In this document: positions 15,164 to 39,688 of the stretch, piece by piece
Numbering within the stretch: position 1 is the stretch's first letter
How the letters are laid out: each line of letters opens with the position of its first letter
Source of the DNA: Candidatus Limnocylindrales bacterium
GTDB taxonomy: Bacteria > Chloroflexota > Limnocylindria > Limnocylindrales > CSP1-4
Length of the DNA: 64,000 nucleotides
Direction of reading: 5' to 3'
Assembly (NCBI GenBank): GCA_035692005.1
Contig: DASSII010000101.1
Span: 35,470-99,469 of the forward strand
Program-made: the position numbers and the translations under genes
The notes under the pieces: model-generated
The model's database searches: none
Told to the model about the DNA's origin: nothing
Seen by the model: only the letters and a program-made list of their open reading frames with translations

Positions 15164-15234
15164 GGGGGCCGAATCCTAGCGCCGCCGCGCCCACTCCGCC
15201 GCTGACCGGTCCGTACTGGTACCCTCGCCCCCGC

Positions 15235-20046: not shown

Positions 20047-22046
20047 CGCGGGCCACCGGTCAGGATCAGGTACGACCCGGCGATGACGATCAGGCCCAGG
20101 GCGATGCCGAGGGCGTAGTTCTGGACGTGTCCGGTCTGCACCCGGCCGAGCCCACGGCCGGCGACGACCGTCTGGCGGCCGATGGCGTTGACCGTGCCGT
20201 CGACGACCTCGCGGTCGAACCACCACATCGCCGCGGCGATCCGCCCGCCGATGACGATGAACAGGAGATGGTTCAGGTCGTCGAACCACCACTTGTTGAG
20301 TGACGCGCGATAGAGGAACGACAGGCCGGGACGGGCGCTCAGCTCACGCACGTCCTCGGGCCGCGCCGGCGCGCGGAACCGCCCGAGGTCGACACCGAAC
20401 AGCCGCCAGGCGGCGACCAGCCCGGCGACCGCCACGGTCACGCTGGCGAGGATCAGGGCACCATCGACGCCGAACAGCTCGTACGACTCATGGGGCAGGG
20501 CCAGGAGCTCGGTGGCGTGGTGGAACACCGGCTCGAGCCAGCCGTGCAGGACACTGGAGCCCAGCGGCAGGCCGATCGCCAGCCCGAGCAGGGCCGAGGG
20601 GATGGCCAGCAGGATGAGCGGGACGGTCATGACCCGGGGCGACTCGTGGATCTTGTCCCAGATGGCCGCCGGGCCACGGAACGAGCCCCAAAAGGTCAGG
20701 CCCATGAGCCGGAACATGTAGAACGCGGTCAGCAGGGCGACGAACAGCCCGACCCCCCACACCCAGTAGAAGCTGGCCTTGAACGCCTCACCGAGGATCT
20801 CGTCCTTGGAGAAGAATCCGGCGAAAGGCGGGATGCCCGCGATGGCGATGGAGCCGACGAACATCGTGGCGTAGGTGATCGGGATCTTCCGGCTCAGGCC
20901 GCCCATCCGGCGCATGTCCTGCTCCTCGTGGACCGCATGGATGACGGAGCCCGAGCCGAGGAAGAGGAGGCCCTTGAAGAAGCCGTGGGTCATCAGGTGG
21001 AAGATGGCCGCGGTGAACGCGCCGACCCCGAGGGCGGCGAACATGTACCCGAGCTGCGACAGCGTCGAATAGGCCAGCACCCGTTTGATGTCGGTCTGGG
21101 TCATCGCGATCGACGCCGCGAGGATGGCGGTGAAGATGCCGATCGCCGCCACCACGACCATGGCCGACGGGGTCGACGCGAACAGCGGGTTGGCCCGCGC
21201 GATGAGATAGACCCCGGCGTTGACCATCGTCGCGGCATGGATGAGCGCGGAGACCGGGGTGGGGCCCTCCATCGCATCGGGCAGCCAGACATGCAGCGGG
21301 AACTGGGCACTCTTGCCCATCGCGCCGGCGAACACAAGCAGCGCGACGACGACGAGCGGGATGGGATTGGCCTCCCCCTGGGCGAGCAGCAGCTCGATCG
21401 ACTCGCGGACGTTGAGCGTCGGGTGGCCGGCGGCCGCGGTATTCACGACGATCGCGGCGATGCCAAGGACGAAGCCCAGGTCGCCGACGCGGTTGACGAT
21501 GAACGCCTTCTTGGCCGCCAGCTGGGCGGAACGCTTGCGGTACCAGAAGCCGATGAGCAAGTAGCTCGACAGCCCGACCAGCTCCCAGGCCACGAACACG
21601 ACGAGCCAGTTGTCGGCCAGGACCAGCAGCAGCATCGAGAACATGAACAGGTTCAGGTAGGCGAAGAACCGCCAGTACCCCGGGTCGTGGCTCATGTAGC
21701 CGATCGAGTAGACGTGGACCAGCAGGCCGATCGTGGTCACGACGATCAGCAGACATGCCGTCAGCGGGTCGACGACCAGTCCGAAGTCGATGTGGAGATC
21801 GCCGGCGGGGATCCACGCCCACGGCCCGGCGACGTAGCCGTGCGTGTCCTCCGAGCCCGGCAGCAGCGGCGCCGCCCCGGTCAGCACGTTGGCGACGGCG
21901 ACCATCGCGATGATCCAGACCACGAGGATCGCCAGGACCGGGATCCAGTGGGCTGACTTGCCGAAGCGTCGGCCGATGAACGCCGTCACCAGGAACCCGC
22001 CCAGCGGCAGGAGGAGCAGCAGCGGCAGCAACGCCTCGATCGTCAC
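20043..22046 (-). CDS. nuoL: NADH-quinone oxidoreductase subunit L
   Basis: '[31 protein letters not shown]' and a long C-terminal amphipathic region. The GTG at 22046 overlaps the nuoK TGA. Confidence 0.9.
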
Positions 22047-22360
22047 TGGCGCATCGCGTCGTACTCGTCGACGAGCGGCGTCTTCTTGTTGCGATAGATG
22101 GCGATCACGATGGCGAGGCCGACGGTCGCCTCGGCCGCCGCGACAGCCATGACCATGAGCGCGAACACGGCACCCTGGGCGGATGCGTCGGGACCGGCAC
22201 CGAACACGCCGAAGGCGACGATGGCAAGGTTGACTGCGTTGAGCATCAGCTCGATCGACATGAGCATGCTGATCGCGTTGCGCCGGGCGAGGAAGCCGAA
22301 CGAGCCGATGGCGAACAGGATGCCGGACAGGATCAGATACGTGTCGAGGCTGTCGCTCAC
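22043..22360 (-). CDS. nuoK: NADH-quinone oxidoreductase subunit K
   Basis: 105-aa 3-TM protein ('[21 protein letters not shown]'). The GTG at 22360 overlaps the nuoJ TGA. Confidence 0.85.
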
Positions 22361-22950
22361 GACGGACCGCCGGGCTCGCGCTTCGCCAGGAAGACACCGC
22401 CGATCACGGCGGCGAGCAGGAGCACGCTGACGATCTCGAACGGGAACACGAAGTCGCGGAACAGGACCTTGGACATCGCGTTCGTCGAGATCCCGACCCG
22501 CTTGGCCGCGGCGCCCCAGTCGGTGGCGGTCACCGCCAGGGCGATGAGCACGGCGAACACGACCGCGGCGATGGCCGCGACGCCTGCCTGGGTCTGGAAC
22601 ACCAGCCGGCTCGGCGCATCCTTGGTCTGGGTGAGCATGATCGCGAACAGGATCAGGACGCTGATCGCGCCGATGTACACGATGACCTGCGCCGCGCCGA
22701 GCAGCGGCACGCCCATCAGCGTGTAGATCCCGGCGAGCGCGAGGAAGCAGACGATCATCGCCAGGCCGCAGCGGATGATGTCGCGCATCGTGACGACCAG
22801 CAGCCCGGACCCGAGCATGACCGCGGCGAGGATCCACAGGAGGGCGTCCTCCCAGTCCTGACCGAGGGCCAGGAGCATGAGCGCGGCGATGCCGAGCACC
22901 GCCCCCATGACGATGAGGCCGAGCAGGATGGGGACGAGCCGGGCGAGCAC
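22357..22950 (-). CDS. nuoJ: NADH-quinone oxidoreductase subunit J
   Basis: 197-aa hydrophobic NuoJ-like protein. Confidence 0.8.
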
Positions 22951-22959
22951 GGTCGGACC

Positions 22960-25608
22960 CTACTCGTGGCCGCCGGGGCCGAGCGCCGCCACGGCAGCGT
23001 GGCCGTCGCCATGGTCGTGCCCGTGGCCGTTGCCCGCGCCGTGGCCGCCGTGCGACGGGACGCCACCGATGGCTGGTGGGAGCATCGGCAGGAGACGGCT
23101 GGTGTCGATGCCACGCCCGTCGGCGGCCGCGCGGGCCGCCCAGTCGCGCTCGCGCCGGATGTAGGTCACCTCGGTCTCGCGGTCGATCGCCGCCAGCGCG
23201 ATCAGGTCGATGACGGGGTCGGTCCGGCTCGTGTGGGCGAGCTCGATGTCGGCACCGTCGCGCAGGGCGTCGTAGGGACACGCATCGACACAGATGCCGC
23301 ACAGGATGCAGCGGCTCTCGTCGACCTCGTACTTCTGCAGGACGCGCGGCTTGGGCATCAGCGCGCCGGTCGGGCAGGTCTCGGCACAGCGACCGCACGA
23401 CACGCACGGCGTGTCGTTGAGGCTCATGTCGAGCGGCGTCGTGACCAGCGTGTCGAAGCCGATGCGCATGAAGTCGTAGCACGCCGCGCCGACGACCTCG
23501 GCGCACACGTTGGCGCACCGTCCGCAATCGATGCAGCGCGATGGCTCACGCAGGATGAACGCGTGCGAATCGTCGCGGATGTAGTCGTGGTTGATGCCGG
23601 TGAACCGGTTCTCGGTGATGCTCCGATAGCCCGCCCCTTGGTGGAACTGCGGCTCGAGCGTCTTGAGCGTGGTGCCGTACTCGATGCCCAGACGTCGCAG
23701 GTCGCAGAAACCGATCGCCTCGCAGGTGCACTGCAGGCAGCGCGTCGATTCGGCGACGGCTGCCGCCGGTGTGTACGGCAGCTCGTACTCGACGTAGTCG
23801 TGGTTGCGCTCCTCGGCCGGCATCGCCTGCATCCGATAGCGCGGCTCCTTGATCTCGGCCGTGAACGGTACGATCGACAGGAACTCCGGCTGCGGCTCGG
23901 CGAGCGTCTGGCGGGTGCGGATCGCGCCCAGGTCCAGGCCCTTCATGAACGCGTCGACGGCGTATGCGGCACGGCGACCCTCGGCGACGGCCTGGACCAC
24001 GGTCGCCGCGCCGATGCGGACATCGCCCGTCCCGAACACGCCCGGGCGATCCGTCTCGAACGTGACCGCGTCGGCCTTGAGGCGTCGTTGCTTGGTCGCC
24101 GCCGGCCCCTCGTTGCCGGGCGCAGCAAGCCAGTCGAGCTCGGGACCCTGGCCGATCGCGAGCAGCACCCGGTCGCACGGGATCGTGAACTCGGTGCCGG
24201 GCGCCGGTTCCGGGCGACGGCGGCCGGAGGCATCCGGGGCGCCAAGAGCCATCCGGATGAACTCCACGCCGGTGACCTTGCCGCTCGCCTCGTCGGTGAT
24301 GACCCGCACGGGTCCGGCCTGGAAGATGGCGGTGACGCCCTCTTCGATGGCCTCGTGGACTTCATCGGCCGCCGGCATGTCCTTCATGTCGCGGCGGTAC
24401 ACGAGGGTGACGTCGCTGGCGCCCTGCCGGACGGAGGTGCGCGAGCAGTCCATCGAGGTGAAGCCACCGCCGATGACCACCACGCGCTTGCCGGCGTGAT
24501 CGGGGTAGGGCAGGCCGAGCGTGGCCGTGCGCAGGTATTCGAGACCGTCGATGACGCCGTCGGCGTCCTCACCGGGGATGCCCAGCTTGTTCGTGTCGTA
24601 GCAGCCGATCGCGACGAGCACCGAGTCGAAGCCCTGGTTGGTCAGGTCGTCGAGGGTGAAGTCGCGCCCGAGGCCGGCATTGGTGACCATCCTGGCGCCG
24701 AGACGCATGACCGACTCGTATTCGGCCTCGAGGACCTCTACCTTGGGCAGGCGGTACTGCGGGATCCCGTAGCGGAGCATGCCGCCCGGCGCGGGATCGC
24801 GCTCGAAGACCGTGACATCGTGGCCGGCGATGAGCAGGTAGTACGCCGCGCTCATGCCGGCCGGCCCCGACCCGATGACCGCGGCGCGGCGGCCTGAACG
24901 GACCTGTCGCTCGAACGGCACGGGCGGATCGACGTCGTCGTCGAGCTGCGCCTTGAGCACCTGGTCGCCGGCGTAGCGATGCGAATCGCGGATGGCGATG
25001 GCCTCATCGACCTCGTCCCGCCGGCAGTGCTCCTCGCACGGCGCGGGGCATACCCGGCCCAGGACCGAGGGGAACGGGATCGTCCGCTTGAAGATGCGCG
25101 TGCTCTCGCGCCAGTCCGCCTCGGCGTTGGCCTTGAGGAAGCCCGGGATGTCGATGTGGCTCGGGCACTTGTTCTGGCACGGTGGCAGGCAGTAGGCGTT
25201 GTGATCGCTGAAGATCAGTTCGAGGTTCGTGCGGCGCAGGCGGCGGACTTCCTCGGTCTGGGTCTGGACCTTCATGTCCGGCTCGCACGTGCGCGAGCAG
25301 GAGATGGGTGGATGCTCCTCGCCCTCGACCTCGACGACGCACATCCGGCAGGCACCGAAGCCCGGCAGCTTCGGCTCGTAGCACAGCGTCGGGATCTCGA
25401 TCCCGTTGTCGCGACAGACCTCGAGGATGGTCTGGCCCTCGAAGCCCTCGACCACCCGCCCGTCGACCTCGATCCGGATGCGCGGCGTCGACTGGGGACG
25501 CTGCGGCGACTGGGTCTCGAGCAGGCGCTCGGCCAGCGAGTCGGCGTTGGTCCGCGCGGACGTCGCGGGAACGGGGCGGCCCTCGGGGCGGGCGATCGTG
25601 TCGGTCAT
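22960..25608 (-). CDS. Non-canonical complex I 'NuoG' replacement: N-terminal NuoG-type [2Fe-2S] ferredoxin domain, then a GltD-like FAD/NAD(P)H oxidoreductase domain, then C-terminal NuoG-type [4Fe-4S] domains and a His-rich tail; no molybdopterin domain
   Basis: Domains in order: '[19 protein letters not shown]' (N1b-type 2Fe-2S), '[12 protein letters not shown]' and '[12 protein letters not shown]' (GltD N-terminal Fe-S), '[17 protein letters not shown]...GIPQYRLPK' (FAD/NADPH), then '[21 protein letters not shown]', '[12 protein letters not shown]' and '[12 protein letters not shown]'. The ATG at 25608 overlaps the nuoF TGA (ATGA). Confidence 0.75.
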
Positions 25609-26900
25609 CGGGAAGCCTCGGTCGCGGCCGGTCGGGGTCGGCGCTCGGGGTCGAACTCGGACCCGAAGTATCGCATCCCGCTGGTCAGCGGGAGCGTGGC
25701 GAGCCGCTCGTGGTCGCACAGGGCGGACGCGGCGATGTCGTGGGCCAGGTCGGTCGCCAGCTGCGCATCGACCGGACGCAACAGGCCCGCCTCGCGCCGG
25801 TCGACGATCTCGGCCAGTCGCTTCGTCCCGATGCGACACGGGATGGACTTGCCACACGCCTCGTTGGCGCAGAACCGGGTCAGTACGCCGACCAGCTCGA
25901 GCAGGTCGGTCCGATCGTCCACGGCCACCACGGACCCCGACCCCAGGTGGGCTCCGGCGTCGCGCAACGAGGCGAAGTCGTAGGGCGTGTCCAGCGCGTC
26001 GGGCGGCAGCAGACCACCCGATGGACCGCCGACCAGCACGGCCTTGAGCGAACGGTCGGCTGGCAGCCGACCGCCAAGCTTGAGCACATCCCTGAGCGGC
26101 GTGCCGAGCGGGACCTCGGCGATGCCGTCTCCCGAGGGGGTCCGCAGCTGGACGAGAACGGTGCCGGGAGCATGGGTGGAGCCGGTCGAGCTGAACGCGT
26201 CCTCGCCCTCGCGGACGATCCACGGCACGGCCGCCAACGTCTGCACGTTGTTGACCACGGTCGGCCGACCGAACAGGCCGCGCCGCGCAGGATGCGGCGG
26301 CCGCTGCTCGGGCTGGCCGCGCTTGCCCTCGAGCGCCTTGAGCAGGACCGTCTCCTCGCCGAGCATGTAGGCGCCCTGGACGGTCCGCACGGAGACGTCG
26401 ATGTCCCGCCCGGAGCCGAGCACGTCCGTGCCGAGATAGCCCGCCTCGCTGGCGGCCCCGATCGCCGCCGACAGCCGGGCGACGACGTCGCCGTGTTCGG
26501 CGCGAACCGCGATGAAGGCCTCGCTGGCCCCGATCGCGAAGGCGGCGATGGCCACCCCTTCGACCACGGCATATGGGTCGAGGAGCATCAGCGTGCGGTC
26601 CGTGTGCGAGGCCGGGTCTGCCCCGTAGCCGTTGGCCACGACGTAGCGCTGGTCAGCGTCGGTGTCGGCGGCCATCCGCCACTTCTCCCCGGTCGGGAAA
26701 CCCGCCCCGCCGCGGCCGCGCAGACCGGACCCGCTGATGGCTGCGATGGTGCCGGCCGGTCCGAGGTCGCGGATCGCGCGGCGCAGGCCCGCGAAGGCTC
26801 CGTCGGCGACGGCAGCATCGAGGTCGGTCGGGTCCTTGGCAGCGGCGCGGGCGAGAAGGATCCGCGGCCAGCCGGCCGGGGTCCGCAGGAGGGTCGCCAT
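25605..26900 (-). CDS. nuoF: NADH-quinone oxidoreductase subunit F (51-kDa, FMN/NADH-binding)
   Basis: 'GLRGRGGAGFPTGEKW' and 'GAYMLGEETVLLKALEG' (FMN), with a C-terminal N3 cluster ('FCANEACGKSIPCRIG...ALCDHE'). It starts 2 nt after the nuoI stop. Confidence 0.85.
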   Translation of the reverse strand: MATLLRTPAGWPRILLARAAAKDPTDLDAAVADGAFAGLRRAIRDLGPAGTIAAISGSGLRGRGGAGFPTGEKWRMAADTDADQRYVVANGYGADPASHTDRTLMLLDPYAVVEGVAIAAFAIGASEAFIAVRAEHGDVVARLSAAIGAASEAGYLGTDVLGSGRDIDVSVRTVQGAYMLGEETVLLKALEGKRGQPEQRPPHPARRGLFGRPTVVNNVQTLAAVPWIVREGEDAFSSTGSTHAPGTVLVQLRTPSGDGIAEVPLGTPLRDVLKLGGRLPADRSLKAVLVGGPSGGLLPPDALDTPYDFASLRDAGAHLGSGSVVAVDDRTDLLELVGVLTRFCANEACGKSIPCRIGTKRLAEIVDRREAGLLRPVDAQLATDLAHDIAASALCDHERLATLPLTSGMRYFGSEFDPERRPRPAATEASR

Positions 26901-26902
26901 GG

Positions 26903-27580
26903 TCAGGTCCGCGCCGCGGCGCCGGGCCGCCCGCTCCCGTCGAGCGCCGCGCCGAGCGTCGCGAGGTACGTCGTCTCCGCGGGCCGGTGGCGCGCGACCG
27001 CGTCCGCCTGCTCGGCGGCAGCGGCCGGCTCGAAGCGCAGGTGGGCGTAGAAGCTGGCCGTGCCGTAGATCATCGCGTACCAGGCACCCGTCCGGTGGCT
27101 GATCCGCTTGAGCGCGGCGACCGGCAGGTAGCCGTACGCGGACTGGGTCGCCTCGAGGATCGCCAGCATCCGGGCCGGATCGTGGTCGTACTCGTCGAGG
27201 ACCGCGTCGACGGCGGCCAGGTCGATCGGCGCGAATGGACGGAAGGCGGGATCGGGCACGGGTCGGCCCGAGCGCCGCAAGGCCGATTCCTCGCGACGTT
27301 CGTCGTACTGCTCGGGTGCGCCCCAGTGGACGTGGTAGCGGCCGCGCGTGTCGATGCCGCCCATGTCGATGCATTCGATCGGGCATGCCTGGGCGCACTG
27401 GAAGCAGGTCTCGCATTTGAGCGTGCCCCACTCGTCGTACAGCAGCTGCAGCCGACCGCGGAACCGCGGCGGCACGTCGAGCCGGACTTCGGGGTACTTG
27501 ATGGTGACCTTGGGCTCGAAGACGCGGCGCAGGGTCAGGGCCATGCCCTTGGCGATGCCAAGACCCGGGATGAAGGTCAT
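26903..27580 (-). CDS. nuoI: Atypical NuoI: a single CxxCxxCxxxCP [4Fe-4S] motif followed by a C-terminal extension resembling the N-terminal helical domain of NuoE
   Basis: The N-terminus aligns with NuoI ('LTLRRVFEPKVTIKYPEVRLDVPPRFRGR...KCETCFQCAQACPIEC'). The C-terminal ~90 aa 'RMLAILEATQSAYGYLPVAALKRISHRTGAWYAMIYGTASFYAHLRF' matches the NuoE N-terminus but has no Cys. No second ferredoxin motif is found in any frame. Confidence 0.65.
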   Translation of the reverse strand: MTFIPGLGIAKGMALTLRRVFEPKVTIKYPEVRLDVPPRFRGRLQLLYDEWGTLKCETCFQCAQACPIECIDMGGIDTRGRYHVHWGAPEQYDERREESALRRSGRPVPDPAFRPFAPIDLAAVDAVLDEYDHDPARMLAILEATQSAYGYLPVAALKRISHRTGAWYAMIYGTASFYAHLRFEPAAAAEQADAVARHRPAETTYLATLGAALDGSGRPGAAART

Positions 27581-27584
27581 CAGG

Positions 27585-28925
27585 TCAGCTCCGGATCACG
27601 ACGATGGCCGCGGCGGTCACGAACAGGTTGAGCAGCGATGCCGGCAGCAGCCACTTCCAGGCGAAGTCCATGAGCTGGTCGATGCGGACGCGAGGCAGCG
27701 TCCCCCGCATCCACACGAAGATGAACACGAAGACGTACGTCTTGAGCATGAACCAGAGGATACCGGCGACCCAGTCGAGGCCGATGTATGCCCACGCGCC
27801 CAGCATGGCGATGATGAACAGGTTGGCGAGCACGAACCCGGCGATGAGCGCCTGCCACCAGCGGATGCGCGAGCTGAGGACGAAGAACGGCGTCGCGAAC
27901 AGCAGCGTCAGCACGACCGGAGCGAGCCCGGCGATGAACAGCAGGCCGATCCCGAACGACGCTGGGTCGAGGCTGAGGGCGATGGGCCAGGGCCACGGGA
28001 ATGGCGCGTTCCAGCCGCCGAAGAAGAGCGTGACCGTGAGCGCCGACATGATGAACACGTTCACGTACTCGGCGAAGAAGAAGAACCCGAAGCGCATGCC
28101 CGAGTACTCCGTGGCGAAGCCCGCCACGATCTCGGAATCGGCCTCGGTCAGGTCGAACGGGGTGCGGTTGGCCTCGGCGGTCGCGGCGATGAAGAAGATC
28201 AGCGCCCCGAGCGGTTGCTGGAAGATGTACCAGTTCGTGAACCAGCCACCCTGGTTCTCGACGAGCGTGTTGAGGCTCATCGTCCCGGCCAGCAGGAGCA
28301 GGCCGACGACCGACAGTGTCAGCGGGATCTCGTAGCTGACGACCTGGGCGGCCGAGCGCAGCCCGCCCAGCAGCGAGTACTTGTTGTAGCTCGCCCAGCC
28401 GGCCATCAGCAGGCCCACGACCGACAGGCCGCCGATGGCGAAGAAGTAGAGCAGGCCGATGTTCAGGTCCGCCCCGTACAGGCCGGGCGCGAACGGGATG
28501 ACGAGCAGGGTCATCACGCTCGCCAGGTAGACGACCACCGGTGCCCAGGTGAACACGACCGGGTCGGCGCCGGTCGGGGTGAAGTCCTCCTTCATGAGGA
28601 CCTTGAGCCCGTGCACGACCGACAGCAGCGACCCGAACGGGCCTACCCGATCGGGGCCGATGCGCAGGTTCATCAGGGCGATGCCCTTCATCTCCATGTA
28701 GATGATCAGAAACGCCGTGGGCACCGTCATCAGCAGCACGAGCGTGACGGCGACGACGAAGCGGACGATCGGCAGGTTGGCGCCGAGGATGTCCAAGAGC
28801 GGGCCCCCGAACGCGACGATGGCCACGACCAGGCCGACGGTCAGCGCGATCAACAGCGGCACGATCGTGAACACGACCTTGCCCGGCAGTGTCAGCCGAT
28901 CCCAGCCGCGTCCGATGACCGTCAC
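27585..28925 (-). CDS. nuoH: NADH-quinone oxidoreductase subunit H
   Basis: 'GWASYNKYSLLGGLRSAAQVVSYEIPL' and 'RTPFDLTEADSEIVAGFATEYSGMRF' are NuoH-type. The GTG at 28925 overlaps the nuoD TGA. Confidence 0.9.
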   Translation of the reverse strand: MTVIGRGWDRLTLPGKVVFTIVPLLIALTVGLVVAIVAFGGPLLDILGANLPIVRFVVAVTLVLLMTVPTAFLIIYMEMKGIALMNLRIGPDRVGPFGSLLSVVHGLKVLMKEDFTPTGADPVVFTWAPVVVYLASVMTLLVIPFAPGLYGADLNIGLLYFFAIGGLSVVGLLMAGWASYNKYSLLGGLRSAAQVVSYEIPLTLSVVGLLLLAGTMSLNTLVENQGGWFTNWYIFQQPLGALIFFIAATAEANRTPFDLTEADSEIVAGFATEYSGMRFGFFFFAEYVNVFIMSALTVTLFFGGWNAPFPWPWPIALSLDPASFGIGLLFIAGLAPVVLTLLFATPFFVLSSRIRWWQALIAGFVLANLFIIAMLGAWAYIGLDWVAGILWFMLKTYVFVFIFVWMRGTLPRVRIDQLMDFAWKWLLPASLLNLFVTAAAIVVIRS

Positions 28926-30181
28926 TTGTCCACCCCGCCCATGATCGGGTCGAGCGAGGCCATGACCGCCATCGTGTCGGCGATGAGGTTGCCGGGCGTC
29001 ATGACCCCGACCGCCTGGAGGTGGATGAACGAGGGGTCGTGGATGCGCATCCGGAACGGCTGGTGTGTCCCGTCGCTGATGGCATAGGTCGCGTACTGTC
29101 CGCGCGGACCCTCGACGGCCGCGTATGCCCGTCCCGGTCGTGGTCGGATGAGCCGCGGCAGTTTGGCCATCACCGGCCCGTCCGGCATCTCGTGGAGGCA
29201 TTGGTCGATGATCCGCAGGCTCTGCCTGACCTCGTCCATGCGCAACAGGTAGCGGGCGAGGCAGTCGCCTTCGCTCCGCGTCGGGATGTCGAAATCGAGC
29301 TCCGGATACACGCTGTATGGATGCGCCCGGCGGACGTCGAAGGGCACGCCGGTCGCCCGCAGGTTCGGCCCACTGAAGCACATCCGCAGCGCCGTCTCGG
29401 TGTCGATGGTGCCCAGGCCGCGCATCCGGCGCACGAAGATTTCGTTCTCATTGAGCAGCGTATTGCCCGCCTCGATCTGCTCGGTCGCGTGGCTCATCCA
29501 GTCGCCGAGGCGGCTCATGAAGTCGTGGTTGAGATCGCCGTTGACGCCACCGATGCGGAAGTAGTTGAACAGCATCCGCTGGCCGGTCACCGCGGCCAGC
29601 ATGTCGACGATCTCGTCTCGCTCGATGAACGACCACAGGATCGGCGTCAGCCCACCGAGATCGAGCGCCATCCAGCCGAGGAACAGCGCGTGGCTGGCGA
29701 TCCGGTTCAGCTCGGCGGTCAGGACCCGGATGTACTGCGCGCGGCGCGGGACCTCGACGTCGAGCAGCTTCTCGAAGGCCATGACCGGCGACCACTCGTT
29801 GAACAGCGAGCTGACGTACTCGAGCGGATCGACCTGGCTGATGACATGGTGGTAGTCGGCGTTCTCGCACAGCTTCTCGACGCCCCGATGCAGGTAACCG
29901 AGGACAGGGTCGAGATCGACGACCTTCTCGCCGTCGAGCTTGAGCACGATCCGCAGCACGCCGTGGGTGGATGGATGCTGTGGACCCATGTTGATGAACA
30001 TCTCGCCGTCGCCGAGCGTGTAGAACTCGGCCTCGCGCTCCGTCCGCGGCGGGTACGGCGGCACCGGCTCGAAGACCCCGAGGTCGCGGTCGAGCCGGAC
30101 GCGCGGGTCATCGGTCGACGCGGCGCCGGACGAGCCTTGGTCGTCGGCGTGGGTGTCGGGGCGAGGCGTGGTGGCGGTCAT
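28922..30181 (-). CDS. nuoD: NADH-quinone oxidoreductase subunit D
   Basis: 'INMGPQHPSTHGVLRIVLKLDGE' and 'IHDPSFIHLQAV' are NuoD-type (49-kDa). Confidence 0.9.
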   Translation of the reverse strand: MTATTPRPDTHADDQGSSGAASTDDPRVRLDRDLGVFEPVPPYPPRTEREAEFYTLGDGEMFINMGPQHPSTHGVLRIVLKLDGEKVVDLDPVLGYLHRGVEKLCENADYHHVISQVDPLEYVSSLFNEWSPVMAFEKLLDVEVPRRAQYIRVLTAELNRIASHALFLGWMALDLGGLTPILWSFIERDEIVDMLAAVTGQRMLFNYFRIGGVNGDLNHDFMSRLGDWMSHATEQIEAGNTLLNENEIFVRRMRGLGTIDTETALRMCFSGPNLRATGVPFDVRRAHPYSVYPELDFDIPTRSEGDCLARYLLRMDEVRQSLRIIDQCLHEMPDGPVMAKLPRLIRPRPGRAYAAVEGPRGQYATYAISDGTHQPFRMRIHDPSFIHLQAVGVMTPGNLIADTMAVMASLDPIMGGVDK

Positions 30182-30204
30182 CGGTCGTCCGTTCGGTCTG
30201 TCGG

Positions 30205-30753
30205 TCAGGCGCCGCTGCGTCGCACGGTCGCTGCAGCCGGCGAGTTGCGGGGATCGTGGGTGCGCTCCATGGGCCGGACACCCGCACCGGGCGAGCGGGC
30301 AGCGTCGTCGGGCAGGTAGAAGTCCTTGCGCAACGGGAAGCTGCGGTAGTCGGGCGGCATATAGATGCGCCGCAGGTCACGGTTCCCCTCGAACGTGATG
30401 CCGAACATGTCGTAGGCCTCGCGCTCCATCCACTCGGCGCCCTTCCACAGGAAGGTCGCTGACGGCACCCGCGGGTCGTCGCGCGACAGGCCGCCGGCGA
30501 TGACCCGCAGCCAATCGGGCGTCGTCGTGCTCCACAAGTGGTACACGACCTGCATGACCTCACCCGTGTCGACGCCGGCCAGGTCGGCCAGGAACTGGAA
30601 CCCGAACGCCGGCTCGTCGTGGAGCGCGGTCAGCACCTGGGTCACGTCGCCCGGGCCGATGCGGATCTCGGTCTCGTCGTGGCGCTGGCGGATGGGGCCG
30701 ACCAGCTGCGCTCCGAAGCGGTCGGCGAGGCGAGCCTTGAACGCGCGATCCAT
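30205..30753 (-). CDS. nuoC: NADH-quinone oxidoreductase subunit C
   Basis: 'FLWKGAEWMEREAYDMFGITFEGNRDLRRI' is NuoC-type (30-kDa). Confidence 0.85.
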   Translation of the reverse strand: MDRAFKARLADRFGAQLVGPIRQRHDETEIRIGPGDVTQVLTALHDEPAFGFQFLADLAGVDTGEVMQVVYHLWSTTTPDWLRVIAGGLSRDDPRVPSATFLWKGAEWMEREAYDMFGITFEGNRDLRRIYMPPDYRSFPLRKDFYLPDDAARSPGAGVRPMERTHDPRNSPAAATVRRSGA

Positions 30754-30757
30754 GCCG

Positions 30758-31510
30758 CTAGACCTCGGCGGGGACGGTCGGGCCGATCGCCCGCTCCGGC
30801 CAATGCCCGCGCCGATCCTTCACCAGTTGCTGGAGCTTCATCATCCCGAAGATGAGGCCCTCCGGGCGGGGCGGACAACCCGGCACGTAGACGTCGACCG
30901 GCATGACCCGGTCGATCCCTTCGACCGTCGAGTAGCTCCGCTTGTAGCGACCGCCGGAGCAGGTGCAATCGCCCATCGCCACGGACCACTTCGGCTCGGG
31001 CATCTGCTCCCACAAGCGGACGAGTGGCCCGGCCATCTTGGTCGTCAGCGTGCCGGCGACGATCAGGACGTCGGCCTGGCGGGGGCTGGCCCGGAACGGG
31101 AACATGCCCCACCGATCCATGTCGTTCTTGGAGGTGGCGGCCGACATCATCTCGATCGCGCAGCACGCCAGGCCGGACAGCAGGGGCCACAGGCTGTTCA
31201 TCCGGATCAGGTCGAGCACGTAGTCGGCCTTCGTCGGGATCACCTCGAGCATGCCGCCCCAGCGGCCATCGTCACGCCGACCCGCCCCGCTCGCCTCGAA
31301 CTGGGCGAGGTGGGTGATGTCGGTCGGGCGACCGCCGTCGTATGCCGCCGGGTCGACCGCCTGCCAGAGCGAATTCGCCACGACGATCGGCGTCGTCAGC
31401 TCGTCCTGCGGTCGGGTCGCCGGCAGGGCCGGATGATTCGGCACGTCGGACGACACCGGAGTCTCGCCCTCGGGTCCCACCCCGAGGCGATCGTCGCCGC
31501 TCAGTGCCAT
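30758..31510 (-). CDS. nuoB: NADH-quinone oxidoreductase subunit B
   Basis: 'GLACCAIEMM', 'MGDCTCSGG' and 'VPGCPPRPE' are the N2 cluster ligands of NuoB. Confidence 0.9.
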   Translation of the reverse strand: MALSGDDRLGVGPEGETPVSSDVPNHPALPATRPQDELTTPIVVANSLWQAVDPAAYDGGRPTDITHLAQFEASGAGRRDDGRWGGMLEVIPTKADYVLDLIRMNSLWPLLSGLACCAIEMMSAATSKNDMDRWGMFPFRASPRQADVLIVAGTLTTKMAGPLVRLWEQMPEPKWSVAMGDCTCSGGRYKRSYSTVEGIDRVMPVDVYVPGCPPRPEGLIFGMMKLQQLVKDRRGHWPERAIGPTVPAEV

Positions 31511-31917
31511 GTCAGCGCGCCCTTGCGCCAGGCGTACGCCAGCCCGAACAGCAGGATCGCGACGAACACGACCATGCTGATCAAGCCGCCGAGCAGCAGG
31601 TCGTTGAACGCGATCGCCCAGAGATAGATGAAGATCACCTCGATGTCGAACGCCACGAACAGCAGGGCGTAGATGTAGAAGGACAGACCGAATCGGCCGT
31701 GCGTATCGCCGTACGTGTCGATACCGGATTCGTACGGCAGGCCCTTGTGCACGTCACCGCGGTTGCGATGCGAGACGAGCCACGCGGCGCCGATCGTCAG
31801 GAACACGAACGACACGCCCGCGAAGGCGAAGCCCACGACGTACCAGAGCTGTTCCAAGCGGACTCCCTTCGGGGGGACGTTGGAGGTGGCGGGCAGGGCG
31901 TCAGGGTGGACGTCCAC
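31501..31917 (-). CDS. nuoA: NADH-quinone oxidoreductase subunit A
   Basis: 3-TM protein 'GLPYESGIDTYGDTHGRFGLSFYIYALLFVAFDIEVIFIYLW' is NuoA-type. The start is uncertain. Confidence 0.85.
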   Translation of the reverse strand: MDVHPDALPATSNVPPKGVRLEQLWYVVGFAFAGVSFVFLTIGAAWLVSHRNRGDVHKGLPYESGIDTYGDTHGRFGLSFYIYALLFVAFDIEVIFIYLWAIAFNDLLLGGLISMVVFVAILLFGLAYAWRKGALTWH

Positions 31918-32202: not shown

Positions 32203-33420
32203 TCAGGGTCGTCGTCGAGGACGTTCGGGGAGCCGATACGCGAACAGGCCCAGCGGCGGGGCTTCGGCATCGTCGGGCCAATCGCGCGCGAATGCCATGA
32301 CGACGAAGCGGCCCATCGCCGCCGGGTCGAGCAGTCGCATCAGGGCGGACCGCAGAACGGTGTACCGCTCGATGGTCGTCGTCGGATCGGCCTGGATGGC
32401 CCGGAGCCGCTGCTCGATGCCGAGGCCCATCAGCGCCTCGGCCTGGGTCGTGCTGCCGAGCGACGTCAGGCCGACCGACGCAGCCGCCCGCTCGACGGCG
32501 GTCACGTCGACGTGGGCCGTGAGGTCCTGCCGACCGACGTGCCGGTAGGGATCGTCGTGGACGCGATGCCGGACATACGCCCGCAGGGTTCCGTCTCGAC
32601 GGCGGATCGGGTCGTACAGCTCGGATGCGGGCGCGCCGTAGTCGATGAGCAGCAGCAGGCCGCGGCGGAGTGGCGCGCTCGCCGCCTCGATCCAGTCGTC
32701 GAGCGCGAGGCAGATGTCCGCCGTCTGGCCGTCGACCAGGGTGATGCCCTCCGCGACGAGACGGGCGGCGAGTGCCGGGGAACTGGGTTCGATCTCCGTC
32801 TCGACGAGCGAGCCGTCGGCGGCCACGGCGACCGCGACCTCGCGCAACCGACCGGCACGCTGGCGGACCCGGTGGACGGGGAGCGCATCGAGGATCTCGT
32901 TGCCCAGGACGACGCCGTCGAATGGTCCCGCATCGGGCGACTCCAGGTGATCCGCCAGGCCGGCGGCAGCCAGCCGCTCGCGCAGGCGCTCGACCCGACG
33001 CGGATCGACCTCGACCGCCTGGTAGCGCAGCGCGACGCCAAGCGGCATCGAGCCCGCCGCGGAGAGGATCGCTTCCGCCAGCGCGCCGTCGCCCGAGCCG
33101 TGCTCGCGCACGACGAACCGATCCGGTCGCCCGAGGCGATCCCAGACGTCGGCGACGGCGACGGCCAGCGAGGCGCCGAAGATCGGGTCGAGCTCGGGGG
33201 CGGTCAGGAAGTCCCCGCCACGTCCCGGGCGCGCTTCCGGGGAGCGGTAGTAGCCACCTGCCGGGTCGTACAGCGCGAGATCCATGAAGCGGGCGAACGG
33301 CATCGGGCCGTCCCGACGGATCTCGGTCCGGATCCGCTCGAGGAGGGCGTCGTCCTGGCCGACGTCGGGTTGCTCGACCGACGGGCGATGGTCGAGGTCG
33401 GCGCGCAACCGGCGGCTCAT
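32203..33420 (-). CDS. Class I SAM-dependent methyltransferase, MidA/NDUFAF7 (COG1565, DUF185) family
   Basis: 'FARFMDLALYDPAGGYYRS...DFLTAPELDPIFGASLA...VVREHGSGDGALAEAIL...GVVLGNEILDALPVH' matches the MidA/NDUFAF7 arrangement. The ATG at 33420 overlaps the upstream TGA (ATGA). Confidence 0.7.
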   Translation of the reverse strand: MSRRLRADLDHRPSVEQPDVGQDDALLERIRTEIRRDGPMPFARFMDLALYDPAGGYYRSPEARPGRGGDFLTAPELDPIFGASLAVAVADVWDRLGRPDRFVVREHGSGDGALAEAILSAAGSMPLGVALRYQAVEVDPRRVERLRERLAAAGLADHLESPDAGPFDGVVLGNEILDALPVHRVRQRAGRLREVAVAVAADGSLVETEIEPSSPALAARLVAEGITLVDGQTADICLALDDWIEAASAPLRRGLLLLIDYGAPASELYDPIRRRDGTLRAYVRHRVHDDPYRHVGRQDLTAHVDVTAVERAAASVGLTSLGSTTQAEALMGLGIEQRLRAIQADPTTTIERYTVLRSALMRLLDPAAMGRFVVMAFARDWPDDAEAPPLGLFAYRLPERPRRRP

Positions 33421-34502: not shown

Positions 34503-35275
34503 GACTCGACCGCGGGCGCCAGGACATCGACCGGCAGGCGAGTCTCGACCGCGCCGTCGACGCCGGGCTCGACCCGGTAGGCGGCCGGGCCGGGATGCGC
34601 GGCGACCACCCTGACGAGCTCGGAGCCATCGAACAGTGCCGCGGCGTGATCGTCGACCGCCAAGCCAGCAGGAAGCACCCGGCGCTGCACCAGGTCGTGG
34701 TAGCGCGGACGGCGTTGCGGTTCGCCATCGTAGTGCGGGCAGTGGCTGCCCGGGATGAGCCCGAGCGCGCCCATCAGTGGCTCGATGCTCGGACCGAACG
34801 AATCGGTCGTCCCGCCGTCGAACCAGCAGATCGATCCGGCCGACCGACCAGCCAGGACGACGCCGGATTCGTGGGCCCGTCGCATCGCGCGGTCGACCCC
34901 GTGGGCGCGCCAGACGGCGAGCAGACTGGCCGTGTTGCCGCCCCCGACGAACACCGCGTCCAGCCCCAGGAGGAACGCCTCGATGTCCTCGACGGTGCGT
35001 TCGAACAGGGCGAGATCGACGACCTCGGCGGCGTCGCCGAAGACGGCCCGGAAGCGGGCCAGCCTCGTCGCGTCGTCGCCGCTGGCAGTGCCGACGTAGC
35101 ACACCCGCGGGCGCCCTCGCCCACGCACCCTCCGCGCTAGGGCGAGCCAGTATTCCTCGAGCGGCCCGAGGCCCGCATCGAGCGAGAAGGCGCCGCCACC
35201 GACGGCCATGATCGGTCGGCCGACGGGCGGAACCTGTGCGACCTCCATCGAGTCCTTCGAGTCCTTCGGATCCAT
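34499..35275 (-). CDS. Peptidase E / S51 family (cyanophycinase-like) dipeptidase
   Basis: 'RVCYVGTASGDDA...AVFVGGGNTASLLAVWRAHG...LAGRSAGSICWF' is the S51 Ser/His/Glu fold. The start is uncertain: M at 35275 or a later M. Confidence 0.7.
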   Translation of the reverse strand: MDPKDSKDSMEVAQVPPVGRPIMAVGGGAFSLDAGLGPLEEYWLALARRVRGRGRPRVCYVGTASGDDATRLARFRAVFGDAAEVVDLALFERTVEDIEAFLLGLDAVFVGGGNTASLLAVWRAHGVDRAMRRAHESGVVLAGRSAGSICWFDGGTTDSFGPSIEPLMGALGLIPGSHCPHYDGEPQRRPRYHDLVQRRVLPAGLAVDDHAAALFDGSELVRVVAAHPGPAAYRVEPGVDGAVETRLPVDVLAPAVES

Positions 35276-35298
35276 CGGGGCGATAGTAAGGTGGCGCG

Positions 35299-39612: not shown

Positions 39613-39688
39613 GGGCGACCTCGATCGCAGTTGGGTCCCCGTGCCGGCGCGGGGCGGATCCAATCGTAGCAGGCTAGTCCCGGATCGT

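What the first reader, a model, noticed from the sequence alone, without database searches (positions are those of the whole stretch)
26903..27580. No nuoE gene; NuoI has a single Fe-S motif and carries a NuoE N-terminal-domain-like C-terminal extension
Between nuoH and nuoF there is one ORF. Its first 110 aa align with NuoI up to the first CxxCxxCxxxCP motif ('CETCFQCAQACP', plus 'IEC'). No second ferredoxin motif exists in any frame. The last ~90 aa ('RMLAILEATQSAYGYLPVAALKRISHRTGAWYAMIYGTASFYAHLRF') match the N-terminal helical, NuoF-docking domain of NuoE. The thioredoxin-like N1a-cluster domain with its four Cys is absent. The gene ends 2 nt before nuoF. This is either a genuinely streamlined N-module (no N1a, one cluster in NuoI) or a degraded second nuo copy.
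Basis: seen in the sequence. Interest (0 to 1): 0.65.

Follow-up and report, generated by a model that had tools for sequence, protein, structure and literature searches.

The report
Split NuoI in rewired complex I
The odd gene is real and conserved: an inserted NAD(P)H-oxidising module appears to have cut the complex I subunit NuoI in two, leaving one half fused to a stump of NuoE and the other on the end of a NuoG/glutamate-synthase-like protein, which is an apparently undescribed way of plugging an electron input into respiratory complex I.

Summary
Residues 9-82 are the N-terminal half of NuoI with one CxxCxxCxxxCP motif. Residues 118-187 are the helical N-terminal domain of a NuoE/NfnC-type subunit. 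There is no thioredoxin-like [2Fe-2S] domain, and the stop codon lies 2 nt before nuoF.

It is not degraded. The order nuoA-B-C-D-H-X-F-BIG-J recurs in about 80 Limnocylindria (Chloroflexota) species. All five Cys of X are invariant, and dN/dS is 0.18-0.40 over residues 1-187.

The key correction is that NuoI's second half is not missing. It forms the C-terminus (about aa 753-830) of the 882-aa gene after nuoF, and its four Cys are also invariant. X plus that tail cover Thermus Nqo9 residues 6-68 and 86-172.

The three genes between the NuoI halves are closest to the NfnABC/StnABC transhydrogenases, including the FAD/NADPH (GltD-like) domain. They lack the parts needed for bifurcation.

Thermoleophilia carry the same split NuoI with a complete Nfn-type module.

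Most likely this is a complex I whose N-module is an Nfn-derived NAD(P)H input tethered through a two-polypeptide NuoI. I found no description of this in the literature I could search.

The parts
26903..27580 (-). ORF X (225 aa): a fusion of the NuoI N-terminal half with a NuoE/NfnC N-terminal domain. This is the finding itself.
   Evidence: A 100%-identical protein (P0001) is named 'NAD(P)H-dependent oxidoreductase subunit E [Candidatus Limnocylindrales bacterium]'.
27335..27580 (-). X aa 1-82: the NuoI N-terminal half, comprising the N-terminal helix (aa 7-21) and the first ferredoxin motif.
   Evidence: NF004536 positions 13-87/180 and TIGR01971 positions 1-63/121. Matches Nqo9 residues 6-68. 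dN/dS 0.24. AF2 pLDDT is 36-49 for aa 25-98 when modelled alone.
27383..27415 (-). CxxCxxCxxxC motif of X (C56, C59, C62, C66). C70 follows four residues later.
   Evidence: All five Cys are invariant in 80/80 orthologs.
27230..27334 (-). X aa 83-117: a conserved linker between the two domains.
   Evidence: It has the lowest dN/dS of the gene, 0.18, and matches no family.
27020..27229 (-). X aa 118-187: the NuoE/NfnC-type N-terminal helical (flavoprotein-anchoring) domain.
   Evidence: PF01257 positions 2-64/145. NfnC 9bov_C E 4e-14. AF2 pLDDT 81-97. Foldseek best hit NfnC 9bp5_C, 48% identity, rmsd 1.0 over 66 columns.
26903..27019 (-). X aa 188-225 plus the stop codon: a variable Ala/Gly-rich tail in place of the thioredoxin-like [2Fe-2S] domain.
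   Evidence: dN/dS 0.66. Most orthologs align only to about aa 184-218.
25605..26900 (-). F (431 aa): a NuoF/NfnB-type flavoprotein core. It lacks the N- and C-terminal cluster domains of NfnB, and its second N3/B1 Cys is replaced by Ser.
   Evidence: PF01512 and PF10589. NfnB 9bov_B scores 337 bits, against 286 for M. smegmatis NuoF and 255 for E. coli NuoF.
22960..25608 (-). BIG (882 aa): an NfnA/StnC-like protein. It comprises a [2Fe-2S] domain, a GltD/NfnL-like FAD/NADPH domain, [4Fe-4S] domains and the NuoI C-terminal half.
   Evidence: NfnA 9bov_A residues 4-699 align to aa 44-777 at 532 bits. It is the most conserved protein of the operon, median 84% identity.
23938..25191 (-). BIG aa about 140-557: the GltD/NfnL-like domain (two [4Fe-4S], FAD, NADPH site).
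   Evidence: PF14691 and PF07992, PRK12814. GSGPAG and GGGFTSMD...VYRR are invariant.
23119..23352 (-). BIG aa about 753-830: the NuoI C-terminal half, comprising the second CxxCxxCxxxCP (C767-C777, nt 23278-23310) and the NuoI-type C-terminal extension.
   Evidence: TIGR01971 positions 71-117/121. When this piece is searched alone, its six best families are all NuoI. It aligns to Nqo9 residues 86-172. Cys and flanks are invariant in 50/50 orthologs.
27585..28925 (-). nuoH, immediately upstream of X.
   Evidence: PF00146. Junction.
22357..22950 (-). nuoJ, immediately downstream of BIG. nuoK (22043-22360), nuoL (20043-22046), nuoM (18382-20046) and nuoN (16883-18385) follow.
   Evidence: PF00499. 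Coordinates.
28922..31917 (-). nuoA (31501-31917), nuoB (30758-31510), nuoC (30205-30753) and nuoD (28922-30181).
   Evidence: Identified from their translations and order. The same order recurs in related loci.
32203..33420 (-). An NDUFAF7/MidA-family methyltransferase gene directly upstream of nuoA.
   Evidence: PF02636, E 1.6e-49. The start was chosen.

Best explanation
ORF X is a functional subunit of a non-canonical respiratory complex I in Limnocylindria.

**Origin (inferred).** An 11-subunit-type nuo operon (A-B-C-D-H-I-J-K-L-M-N, with an NDUFAF7 gene beside it) appears to have received a three-gene Nfn/Stn-type (Bfu-family) cassette inside nuoI. The insertion point is the loop between NuoI's two cluster-binding motifs.

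**Resulting genes (shown).**
- The NuoI N-half is fused to the first cassette gene. Here only the NuoE/NfnC N-terminal anchor domain of that gene survives. This fusion is X.
- A NuoF/NfnB-type flavoprotein core follows (F).
- The NuoI C-half ends up on the C-terminus of the NfnA-like protein (BIG). It takes the place of NfnA's vestigial formate-dehydrogenase-like domain.

**Assembly (inferred).** The two NuoI halves reassemble into one 2x[4Fe-4S] ferredoxin domain (N6a/N6b). In that fold each cluster takes three Cys from one motif and the fourth from the other (established knowledge). Both clusters would therefore be ligated across the X-BIG interface, which also tethers the input module to the Q-module at both ends.

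**Electron path (inferred by homology with Csac NfnABC).**
- NADPH route: NADPH -> FAD -> A7 -> A6 -> A3 -> A2 -> A4 -> NuoI clusters -> N2 (NuoB) -> quinone.
- Possible NADH route: NADH -> FMN -> B1 -> A1 -> A2, joining the same exit.
- NfnA's 'dead-end' branch A2-A4-A5 becomes the outlet.

**No bifurcation (inferred).** The C1 [2Fe-2S] domain and NfnB's extra cluster domains are gone, so the Limnocylindria enzyme is not expected to bifurcate electrons. It would be a proton-pumping NAD(P)H:quinone oxidoreductase.
For: **Shown**
1. X is the NuoI N-half plus the NuoE N-domain.
2. BIG aa 755-801 match NuoI profile positions 71-117/121. Searched alone, that tail's six best NCBIfam families are all NuoI. 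It aligns to Thermus Nqo9 residues 86-172, while X aligns to residues 6-68.
3. An artificial joining of X(1-81) and BIG(757-831) matches TIGR01971 as a single stretch, positions 1-117/121, at 104.6 bits. The pieces alone score about 55 and 43 bits.
4. Motif parity. X has 1 CxxCxxCxxxC motif and BIG has 3. The same 1 + 3 pattern holds in four distant lineages, L082, L083, L086 and L088.
5. All eight NuoI-type Cys are invariant: 80/80 orthologs for X and 50/50 for BIG.
6. The order nuoA-B-C-D-H-X-F-BIG-J recurs across the 80 loci, and no intact nuoI was seen between nuoH and nuoJ. Genes are tightly packed or overlapping.
7. Purifying selection: dN/dS is 0.24, 0.18 and 0.40 over the three conserved segments of X.
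8. Nfn ancestry. X, F and BIG each have their best PDB relative in the same complexes: Csac NfnABC (9bov), T. sibiricus NfnABC (9n5u) and StnABC (8oh5). The GltD-like domain sits at the same place as in NfnA.
9. The FAD and NADPH-site motifs of BIG are invariant. BIG is the most conserved protein of the operon.
10. An evolutionary series exists. Thermoleophilia have the same split NuoI with a full NuoE (4 Cys), a full NfnB-like 636-aa subunit and an 824-aa NfnA-like protein carrying the NuoI-C half. Intermediate forms keep the thioredoxin fold but have lost Cys.

**From papers**
- The NfnA cluster path and the dead-end branch A2-A4-A5 (PMC11829005).
- The NfnC N-terminal domain anchors the subunit between NfnA and NfnB.
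- It is the only part of NfnC that stays ordered in the NAD-bound structures, where the chains are 64-67 residues long.
Against: - There is no direct evidence that the two halves associate. AF2 was allowed on single chains only. It gave low confidence for both half-domains: X aa 25-98 at pLDDT 36-49 and BIG aa 630-882 at about 30.
- The joined NuoI scores 104.6 bits, just under TIGR01971's 113.05 cut-off.
- F looks partly degenerate. The second Cys of the N3/B1 motif is Thr/Ser in 62/66 orthologs. The FMN-site motif NADEGDPG is NGYGADP. F is the least conserved operon protein at a median of 64% identity. The NADH/FMN route may therefore be weak or lost.
- The rest of the genome could not be searched for a canonical nuoI, nuoE or a second nuo operon.
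- In one locus (L012) the operon is followed by unrelated genes right after F.
- Substrate, quinone reduction and proton pumping are all inferred. No expression or biochemical data exist.
Confidence: 0.72

Rival explanations
1. An NADPH-only variant of the same architecture. F is kept mainly as a structural relic or scaffold that holds the NuoE stump. Electrons enter only through the GltD-like FAD/NADPH domain of BIG. The FMN site no longer oxidises NADH.
For: - BIG is the most conserved operon protein (median 84%) and F the least (64%).
- The N3/B1 motif of F has lost its second Cys in 62/66 orthologs. L083's F has lost the third Cys instead.
- The acidic FMN-site motif is replaced by NGYGADP in exactly those lineages that lost or degraded the NuoE cluster domain.
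- By homology with NfnA, the path FAD -> A7 -> A6 -> A3 -> A2 -> A4 does not pass through F.
Against: - The FMN P-loop GRGGAGF and the GEET motif are conserved. Three of the four N3/B1 Cys are invariant in 66/66 orthologs, and residue 352 is restricted to Thr/Ser. This looks like a modified site rather than a decaying one.
- F is retained in every locus.
Confidence: 0.3
2. One reading: a streamlined N-module in which NuoI binds only one [4Fe-4S] cluster using X's single motif (perhaps with C70). The ferredoxin motif at the end of BIG would be unrelated to NuoI.
For: - X has only one motif plus an extra invariant Cys, C70.
- By summed score, the best PDB hits of BIG's tail are polyferredoxins, so the Cys motif by itself is generic.
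Against: - BIG's tail aligns to NuoI well beyond the motif: Nqo9 residues 86-172 and NuoI profile positions 71-117. Its best curated families are all NuoI.
- X and the tail are exactly complementary in NuoI coordinates.
- The 1 + 3 motif parity is conserved in five lineages.
- C70 is specific to the 225-aa clade and is not a family feature.
- In the standard ferredoxin fold the CP cysteine of a motif ligates the other cluster (established knowledge), so one isolated motif is not a complete site.
Confidence: 0.07
3. One reading: a decaying second nuo copy, or frameshift/assembly errors that hide a normal nuoI followed by a full nuoE.
For: - The window alone cannot exclude another nuo operon elsewhere in the genome.
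- The tail of X (aa 188-225) evolves almost neutrally, with dN/dS 0.66.
Against: - The same gene structure is found in 80 species-level genomes from many independent assemblies, including contigs above 1 Mb and a closed chromosome.
- 2944 database relatives are mostly 223-232 aa long.
- The cysteines are invariant and dN/dS is 0.18-0.40.
- No remnant of the thioredoxin-like domain or of a second motif is found in any frame.
- All neighbouring nuo genes are intact.
Confidence: 0.02
4. The Nfn-like module is a soluble enzyme whose genes merely sit inside the nuo operon. X's NuoI-half and BIG's NuoI-half would be vestiges that do not dock onto the membrane complex.
For: - L088 carries nuoB-nuoD-X-F-BIG without membrane-subunit genes within 10 kb.
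- NfnABC and StnABC are soluble enzymes.
Against: - In the window and in about 80 loci the operon has no other NuoI. Electrons cannot reach N2 in known complex I without it (established knowledge).
- The NuoH-contacting N-terminus of NuoI is retained and constrained in X.
- L088 still pairs the module with genuine NuoB and NuoD.
Confidence: 0.05

Closest known systems
NuoI / Nqo9 / TYKY (NDUFS8), the 2x[4Fe-4S] connecting subunit of complex I
   Same: - X keeps the N-terminal helix and first CxxCxxCxxxCP, aligning to Nqo9 residues 6-68.
- BIG's tail keeps the second motif and the NuoI-type C-terminal extension, aligning to Nqo9 residues 86-172.
- The genes lie between nuoH and nuoJ.
   Different: - The subunit is encoded as two halves on two different polypeptides, separated by about 3.6 kb and a three-gene module.
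- Neither half reaches the family cut-off alone.
NuoE / NDUFV2 / NfnC / HydC (PF01257, thioredoxin-like [2Fe-2S] subunit)
   Same: The N-terminal helical domain that binds the flavoprotein is present. It is 48% identical to Csac NfnC over 66 columns, with rmsd 1.0.
   Different: - The thioredoxin-like domain and its four Cys (cluster N1a/C1) are absent.
- The domain is fused behind half of NuoI.
NfnABC / StnABC electron-bifurcating transhydrogenases (Bfu family; PDB 9bov, 9n5u, 8oh5)
   Same: - The gene order C-B-A is the same.
- The A subunit has a [2Fe-2S] N-domain, an inserted GltD/NfnL-like FAD/NADPH domain and the A2-A4 cluster region.
- The B subunit has the FMN core.
- These complexes are the best PDB relatives of all three proteins.
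   Different: - There is no Fdh-like domain in A; it is replaced by the NuoI C-half.
- B has no N-terminal or C-terminal cluster/Zn domains.
- C has no C1 cluster.
- The genes are embedded in a nuo operon. A membrane-bound, non-bifurcating enzyme is predicted.
Canonical 14-subunit complex I with the NuoEFG N-module
   Same: It has the same overall logic: a flavoprotein input, an Fe-S chain, then NuoI, NuoB (N2), quinone and the antiporter-like subunits. All 11 core genes are present.
   Different: - The input genes lie inside nuoI rather than between nuoD and nuoH.
- They are of Nfn type and carry an extra FAD/NADPH domain.
- There is no N1a cluster and no NuoG C-terminal domain.
- NuoI is split.
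11-subunit complex I relatives with alternative input modules (cyanobacterial NDH-1 with ferredoxin, archaeal Fpo with FpoF; from general knowledge) and actinobacterial 11-subunit nuo operons flanked by NDUFAF7 (bioRxiv 10.1101/2021.02.01.429150)
   Same: A core of 11 subunits is combined with a lineage-specific electron input. An NDUFAF7-family gene lies next to the operon.
   Different: Here the input module is covalently spliced into NuoI rather than docking as separate subunits.

Membership tests
NuoI (TIGR01971 / NF004536) | N-terminal region that precedes the clusters, with the gene positioned between nuoH and nuoJ. | tested here: met
   X aa 9-55 align to the start of the NuoI profiles and to Nqo9 residues 6-52. 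The gene follows nuoH by 4 nt.
NuoI (TIGR01971 / NF004536) | Two CxxCxxCxxxCP motifs in one polypeptide. | tested here: not met
   X has one motif. The second is on BIG at aa 767-778.
NuoI (TIGR01971 / NF004536) | Score above the curated family cut-off. | tested here: not met
   X scores 53.4 bits against a cut-off of 113.05. The artificial X+BIG-tail join scores 104.6 bits over positions 1-117/121.
NuoE / PF01257 2Fe-2S_thioredx | N-terminal helical domain. | tested here: met
   PF01257 positions 2-64/145 at 38 bits, above the 24.8 cut-off. Fold match to NfnC, HydC and NuoE.
NuoE / PF01257 2Fe-2S_thioredx | Thioredoxin-like domain with four Cys binding [2Fe-2S] (N1a/C1). | tested here: not met
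   X has no Cys after C70. Profile positions 65-145 are unmatched. No such sequence occurs elsewhere in the window.
Bfu family (NfnABC/StnABC), A subunit | [2Fe-2S] N-domain with the NfnL/GltD-like FAD/NADPH domain inserted before the [4Fe-4S] ferredoxin-like region. | tested here: met
   BIG aa 44-777 are collinear with NfnA residues 4-699 at 532 bits.
Bfu family (NfnABC/StnABC), A subunit | C-terminal Fdh/NuoG-like (molybdopterin-fold) domain. | tested here: not met
   BIG is 882 aa against 1178 aa for NfnA. The alignment stops at NfnA residue 699, and the NuoI C-half follows.
Bfu family, bifurcation site [B1-FMN-C1] plus ferredoxin-reducing clusters B3/B4 | C1 [2Fe-2S] in the C subunit, an intact B1, and the C-terminal cluster domain in the B subunit. 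| tested here: not met
   C1 is absent. B1 has 3 Cys plus Ser/Thr. F matches only the core, NfnB residues 104-515 of 584. The definition of the site is taken from PMC11829005.
Respiratory complex I (nuo operon) | Genes for the 11 core subunits A, B, C, D, H, I, J, K, L, M and N in one operon. | tested here: met
   All are present on the minus strand at 16883-31917, with I as two halves. The same order recurs in related loci.
Respiratory complex I (nuo operon) | NAD(P)H:quinone oxidoreductase activity coupled to proton translocation. | not testable with these tools
   This needs membranes or purified enzyme.

The most novel reading that the evidence does not exclude
A soluble Nfn/Stn-type (Bfu) oxidoreductase was spliced, as a gene cassette, into the inter-motif loop of nuoI of an 11-subunit complex I. 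This created a second, independent origin of an NAD(P)H-oxidising N-module, docked through a ferredoxin domain that is rebuilt from two polypeptides.

In Limnocylindria the result would be a proton-pumping NADPH(/NADH):quinone oxidoreductase.

In Thermoleophilia the inserted module keeps every element of the bifurcating flavobicluster and the ferredoxin-side clusters. That version could be a respiratory complex I that couples NAD(P)H, ferredoxin and quinone.
Probability: 0.4. Interest if true: 0.85.

Novelty: new variant of a known kind. Interest (0 to 1): 0.7.

Why it matters
- **Input diversity.** How 11-subunit complex I relatives acquire electron-input modules is a long-standing question. 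Only a few solutions are known: NuoEFG, FpoF, and ferredoxin via NdhS. This locus shows another, in two abundant soil and freshwater lineages (Limnocylindria and Thermoleophilia).
- **Evolutionary route.** It suggests a simple way to attach a soluble enzyme to a membrane complex. Inserting the genes into a loop of the connecting ferredoxin subunit tethers the module at both ends from the first generation.
- **Physiology.** It predicts a respiratory enzyme with an NADPH site. That would change how redox balance and energy yield are modelled for these uncultured groups.
- **Annotation.** Pipelines currently label the parts 'ferredoxin', 'NAD(P)H-dependent oxidoreductase subunit E' and 'FAD-dependent oxidoreductase'. 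These genomes may therefore be scored as lacking nuoE, nuoG and nuoI.
- **A lead on bifurcation.** The Thermoleophilia form, with a full Bfu module, is a candidate for linking flavin-based bifurcation to a quinone-reducing proton pump.

Tried and rejected
- **AF2 of BIG.** With a 45-sequence alignment it gave pLDDT of about 30 for aa 630-882. It says nothing about the NuoI C-half, so I ran no fold search on it.
- **AF2 of X.** Only the NuoE-N domain and the N-terminal helix were confident.
- **Literature.** Ten full-text searches were run: NuoI/NuoE fusion, split NuoI, GltD in nuo operons, Bfu plus NuoH/NuoI, Limnocylindria and Thermoleophilia complex I. None returned a description of this architecture. 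The nearest items concern gltD-like proteins replacing NuoI in mbx-like operons and 11-subunit operons next to NDUFAF7.
- **Taxonomy of the 253-aa subfamily.** Cluster members returned no names. The question was solved instead through the partner protein.
- **Second nuo copy or stand-alone nuoE.** This could be tested only inside the 64-kb window, where the result was negative.
- **Is L088's NuoB/NuoD pair a [NiFe]-hydrogenase?** I considered this and rejected it. Both proteins match Nuo models.
- **Is C70 a fifth ligand making X a one-cluster protein?** I considered this too. C70 is clade-specific, so it is not a family-level explanation.
Full report
**What is at the coordinates**

The window has 70% G+C. 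It carries a nuo operon on the minus strand: nuoA, B, C, D and H; then the ORF in question (X, 26903-27580, 225 aa); a nuoF-like gene (F, 25605-26900); an 882-aa gene (BIG, 22960-25608); and nuoJ, K, L, M and N.

The genes are packed tightly:
- nuoH's stop, 4 nt, then X's ATG, with a GGAG 8 nt upstream.
- X's TGA, 2 nt, then the ATG of F.
- The stop of F and the start of BIG overlap as ATGA.
- BIG's stop, 9 nt, then the GTG of nuoJ.

A protein 100% identical to X is on record from a 'Candidatus Limnocylindrales bacterium' MAG, named 'NAD(P)H-dependent oxidoreductase subunit E'.

- Residues 9-82 match NuoI models only over their first half: NF004536 positions 13-87/180 and TIGR01971 positions 1-63/121. 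They also match Nqo9/TYKY chains at residues 6-68.
- There is a single CxxCxxCxxxCP (C56-C66), followed by C70.
- Residues 118-187 match the first 64 positions of PF01257, above its cut-off. The best PDB match is the NfnC subunit of Caldicellulosiruptor NfnABC (E 4e-14).
- An AF2 model is confident for this domain (pLDDT 81-97). Its best structural match is NfnC, at 48% identity and rmsd 1.0 Å over 66 columns.
- No thioredoxin-like [2Fe-2S] part exists in X or anywhere else in the window in any frame.
- The last 38 residues are a poorly conserved tail.

**The second half of NuoI is not missing**

BIG residues 755-801 match TIGR01971 positions 71-117/121. Several further checks agree:
- Searched alone, BIG's last 131 residues have NuoI models as their six best curated families.
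- The same tail aligns to Thermus Nqo9 residues 86-172, which reaches well beyond the generic Cys motif.
- X (Nqo9 residues 6-68) and this tail (residues 86-172) are therefore complementary. By the alignment offsets, X C56/59/62/66 correspond to Nqo9 positions 53/56/59/63, and BIG C767/770/773/777 to positions 98/101/104/108. I recall these as the eight Nqo9 ligands; the numbering is from memory.
- An artificial join of the two pieces matches the NuoI model as one stretch, positions 1-117/121, at 104.6 bits. That is twice either piece alone, though just below the 113-bit cut-off.
- A six-frame scan finds one CxxCxxCxxxC motif in X and three in BIG. That makes four motifs, or two dicluster domains.
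- In 2x[4Fe-4S] ferredoxins each cluster takes three Cys from one motif and the CP-Cys of the other (established knowledge). Orphan motifs on two chains make sense only if they pair.

**The genes between the NuoI halves are Nfn/Stn-type**

X's C-domain, F and BIG each find their best solved relatives in the same three complexes: Csac NfnABC (9bov), T. sibiricus NfnABC (9n5u) and S. ovata StnABC (8oh5).

- BIG aa 44-777 are collinear with NfnA residues 4-699 at 532 bits. This includes the GltD/NfnL-like FAD/NADPH domain, inserted at the same place.
- F scores 337 bits to NfnB. It scores 286 bits to mycobacterial NuoF, 255 to E. coli NuoF and 251 to Thermus Nqo1.

Compared with NfnABC, four things differ:
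- A has lost the vestigial Fdh-like domain, and the NuoI C-half replaces it.
- B is reduced to its core.
- C is reduced to its N-terminal domain.
- The second Cys of the N3/B1 motif of F is Ser/Thr, and its FMN-site motif NADEGDPG reads NGYGADP.

**It is a real, selected gene**

- X has 2944 relatives in the 90%-clustered database, mostly 223-232 aa long.
- The genome collection yielded 126 loci. The 80 retained are from Limnocylindria/Chloroflexota MAGs, including megabase contigs and one closed chromosome.
- tblastn shows the order nuoA-B-C-D-H-X-F-BIG-J throughout. Two loci depart from it. In L012, unrelated genes follow F. L078 gave no nuoB or nuoD match.
- All five Cys of X (80/80) and all cluster Cys of BIG (50/50) are invariant.
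- dN/dS against 79 orthologs is 0.24 (NuoI-N), 0.18 (linker), 0.40 (NuoE-N) and 0.66 (tail).
- BIG is the most conserved protein of the operon, at a median of 84% identity. F is the least conserved, at 64%.

**A wider family and an evolutionary series**

A search of 50%-identity representatives and a profile search revealed several kinds of relative:
- Some carry the NuoI N-half plus a complete NuoE with four Cys (253-aa group; P0239).
- Some keep a thioredoxin fold that has lost Cys (P0156, P0243, P0247).
- Some are truncated (239-aa group, also from Limnocylindria/Chloroflexota).

Their gene contexts are as follows:
- **L086** (1.8-Mb contig): nuoABCDH, X253, a 636-aa full NfnB-like protein with both extra cluster domains, an 824-aa NfnA-like protein ending in the NuoI C-half, then nuoJKLMN. 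NCBI names for that protein family place it in Thermoleophilia/Actinobacteria.
- **L082**: the same split NuoI but different wiring. The GltD domain is fused to NuoF, and the NuoI C-half sits on a 265-aa HoxU-like protein.
- **L088**: genuine nuoB and nuoD, then X239-F-BIG and an NDUFAF7-like gene, with no membrane-subunit genes nearby.

In all four lineages the X-like protein has one ferredoxin motif and its partner has three.

**How it most likely works**

The domain identities, complementarity, conservation and synteny above are shown. The rest is inferred.

- The two NuoI halves rebuild the N6a/N6b domain between X and BIG. X's N-terminus sits on NuoH as in ordinary NuoI. X's NuoE-type domain holds F, as the NfnC N-domain holds NfnB.
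- In Csac NfnA, electrons run FAD-A7-A6-A3-A2-A1-[B1-FMN-C1]. A2-A4-A5 is a dead-end branch toward the lost pterin site.
- In BIG the NuoI C-half follows the A4 motif by about 20 residues, exactly where A5's domain begins in NfnA.
- The likely outlet is therefore A2-A4-NuoI clusters-N2-quinone.
- NADPH via FAD is the best-supported donor. NADH via FMN/B1/A1 is possible but uncertain, given the altered motifs of F.
- Without C1 and B3/B4, bifurcation is not expected in Limnocylindria. The Thermoleophilia version retains all of these elements.

**Origin**

Three observations argue for an Nfn-type cassette inserted into nuoI of an 11-subunit-type operon, independent of the classical NuoEFG acquisition:
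- The input genes lie inside nuoI rather than between nuoD and nuoH.
- They have Nfn affinities.
- An NDUFAF7-family gene lies beside the operon, as reported for actinobacterial 11-subunit operons.

This is an inference. I built no phylogeny.

**Novelty and limits**

Ten full-text searches found no description of a split NuoI, a NuoI-NuoE fusion or an Nfn-type module in a nuo operon. Papers in subscription journals were not searchable.

I could not do three things:
- model the two chains together;
- search whole genomes for canonical nuoI or nuoE;
- test activity.

**Verdict**

It is wrong on two points, the one-cluster NuoI and the degraded copy. The locus is an apparently undescribed variant of complex I.

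Noticed in passing
window 32203-33420 (-): A PF02636 (NDUFAF7/MidA-family) methyltransferase gene lies directly upstream of nuoA on the same strand (E 1.6e-49). The same family follows the BIG-like gene in L088. In mitochondria this family methylates the NuoD homolog during complex I assembly (general knowledge).
   Followed up: partly
window 25605-26900 (-), F aa 90-96 and 349-355: - The NuoF-like protein has C-G-K-S-I-P-C in place of CxxCxxC. Residue 352 is Thr or Ser in 62 of 66 orthologs.
- Its FMN-site motif is NGYGADP in place of NADEGDPG.
- Across five lineages the Tyr substitution at the first acidic position (NAY/NGY for NADE/NGDE) co-occurs with loss or decay of the NuoE [2Fe-2S] domain.
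- L083's F has lost the third Cys instead.
   Followed up: partly
window 24979-24981 (-), BIG H210: An invariant His (50/50 orthologs) aligns with Lys170 of Csac NfnA. That Lys is the unusual non-Cys ligand of cluster A7, next to FAD.
   Followed up: partly
window 22960-23070 (-), BIG aa about 846-882: A His/Gly-rich C-terminal tail ([18 protein letters not shown]). It is not conserved in orthologs, whose alignments end near aa 845. Its function is unknown.
   Followed up: no
L086:6255-20762 (GCA_040769125.1, Thermoleophilia-type): The same split NuoI surrounds a complete Bfu-type module:
- a full NuoE with 4 Cys;
- a 636-aa NfnB-like protein with an N-terminal thioredoxin-like domain and a C-terminal dicluster domain;
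- canonical FMN and N3 motifs.

This is a candidate for a complex I linked to a bifurcating-type module.
   Followed up: partly
L082:359-11571: A different domain wiring with the same split NuoI. The order is nuoH; NuoI-N::full NuoE; a 1048-aa protein with a NuoE-like part, NuoF and a GltD-like domain; a 265-aa HoxU-like protein ending in the NuoI C-half; then nuoJKLMN. The lineage was not identified.
   Followed up: partly
L088:8228-15441 (GCA_041643075.1): The order here is nuoB, nuoD, X-like (239 aa), F, BIG, then an NDUFAF7-like gene. There is no nuoA, C, H or J-N within 10 kb. The nuo genes of this Chloroflexota lineage may be split over several loci, or this may be a separate peripheral-arm module.
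   Followed up: partly
L012:10686-16500 and L078: These are exceptions to the synteny. In L012, F is followed by unrelated genes (the ORFs look thyX-like and 2-oxoglutarate-dehydrogenase-like; their families were not checked) instead of BIG and nuoJ. L078 gave no nuoB or nuoD match between nuoA, nuoC and nuoH. I could not tell rearrangement from mis-assembly.
   Followed up: partly
window 35971-39696 (-): Three genes of a CoxL/S/M-type molybdenum hydroxylase: the MoCo-binding large subunit, the [2Fe-2S] small subunit and the FAD-binding medium subunit. Nearby are a Peptidase_S51 gene (34499-35476, minus strand), an AhpC/TSA-family gene (14995-15942, plus strand) and a trehalose-phosphatase-like gene (15237-16886, plus strand).
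   Followed up: no
proteins P0153, P0172, P0185, P0220, P0249: Several 'relatives' in the 50%-identity representative library are partly wrong-frame translations of this high-G+C gene. Correct stretches are joined to Arg/Ala/Pro-rich nonsense. They inflate the apparent diversity of the family.
   Followed up: no
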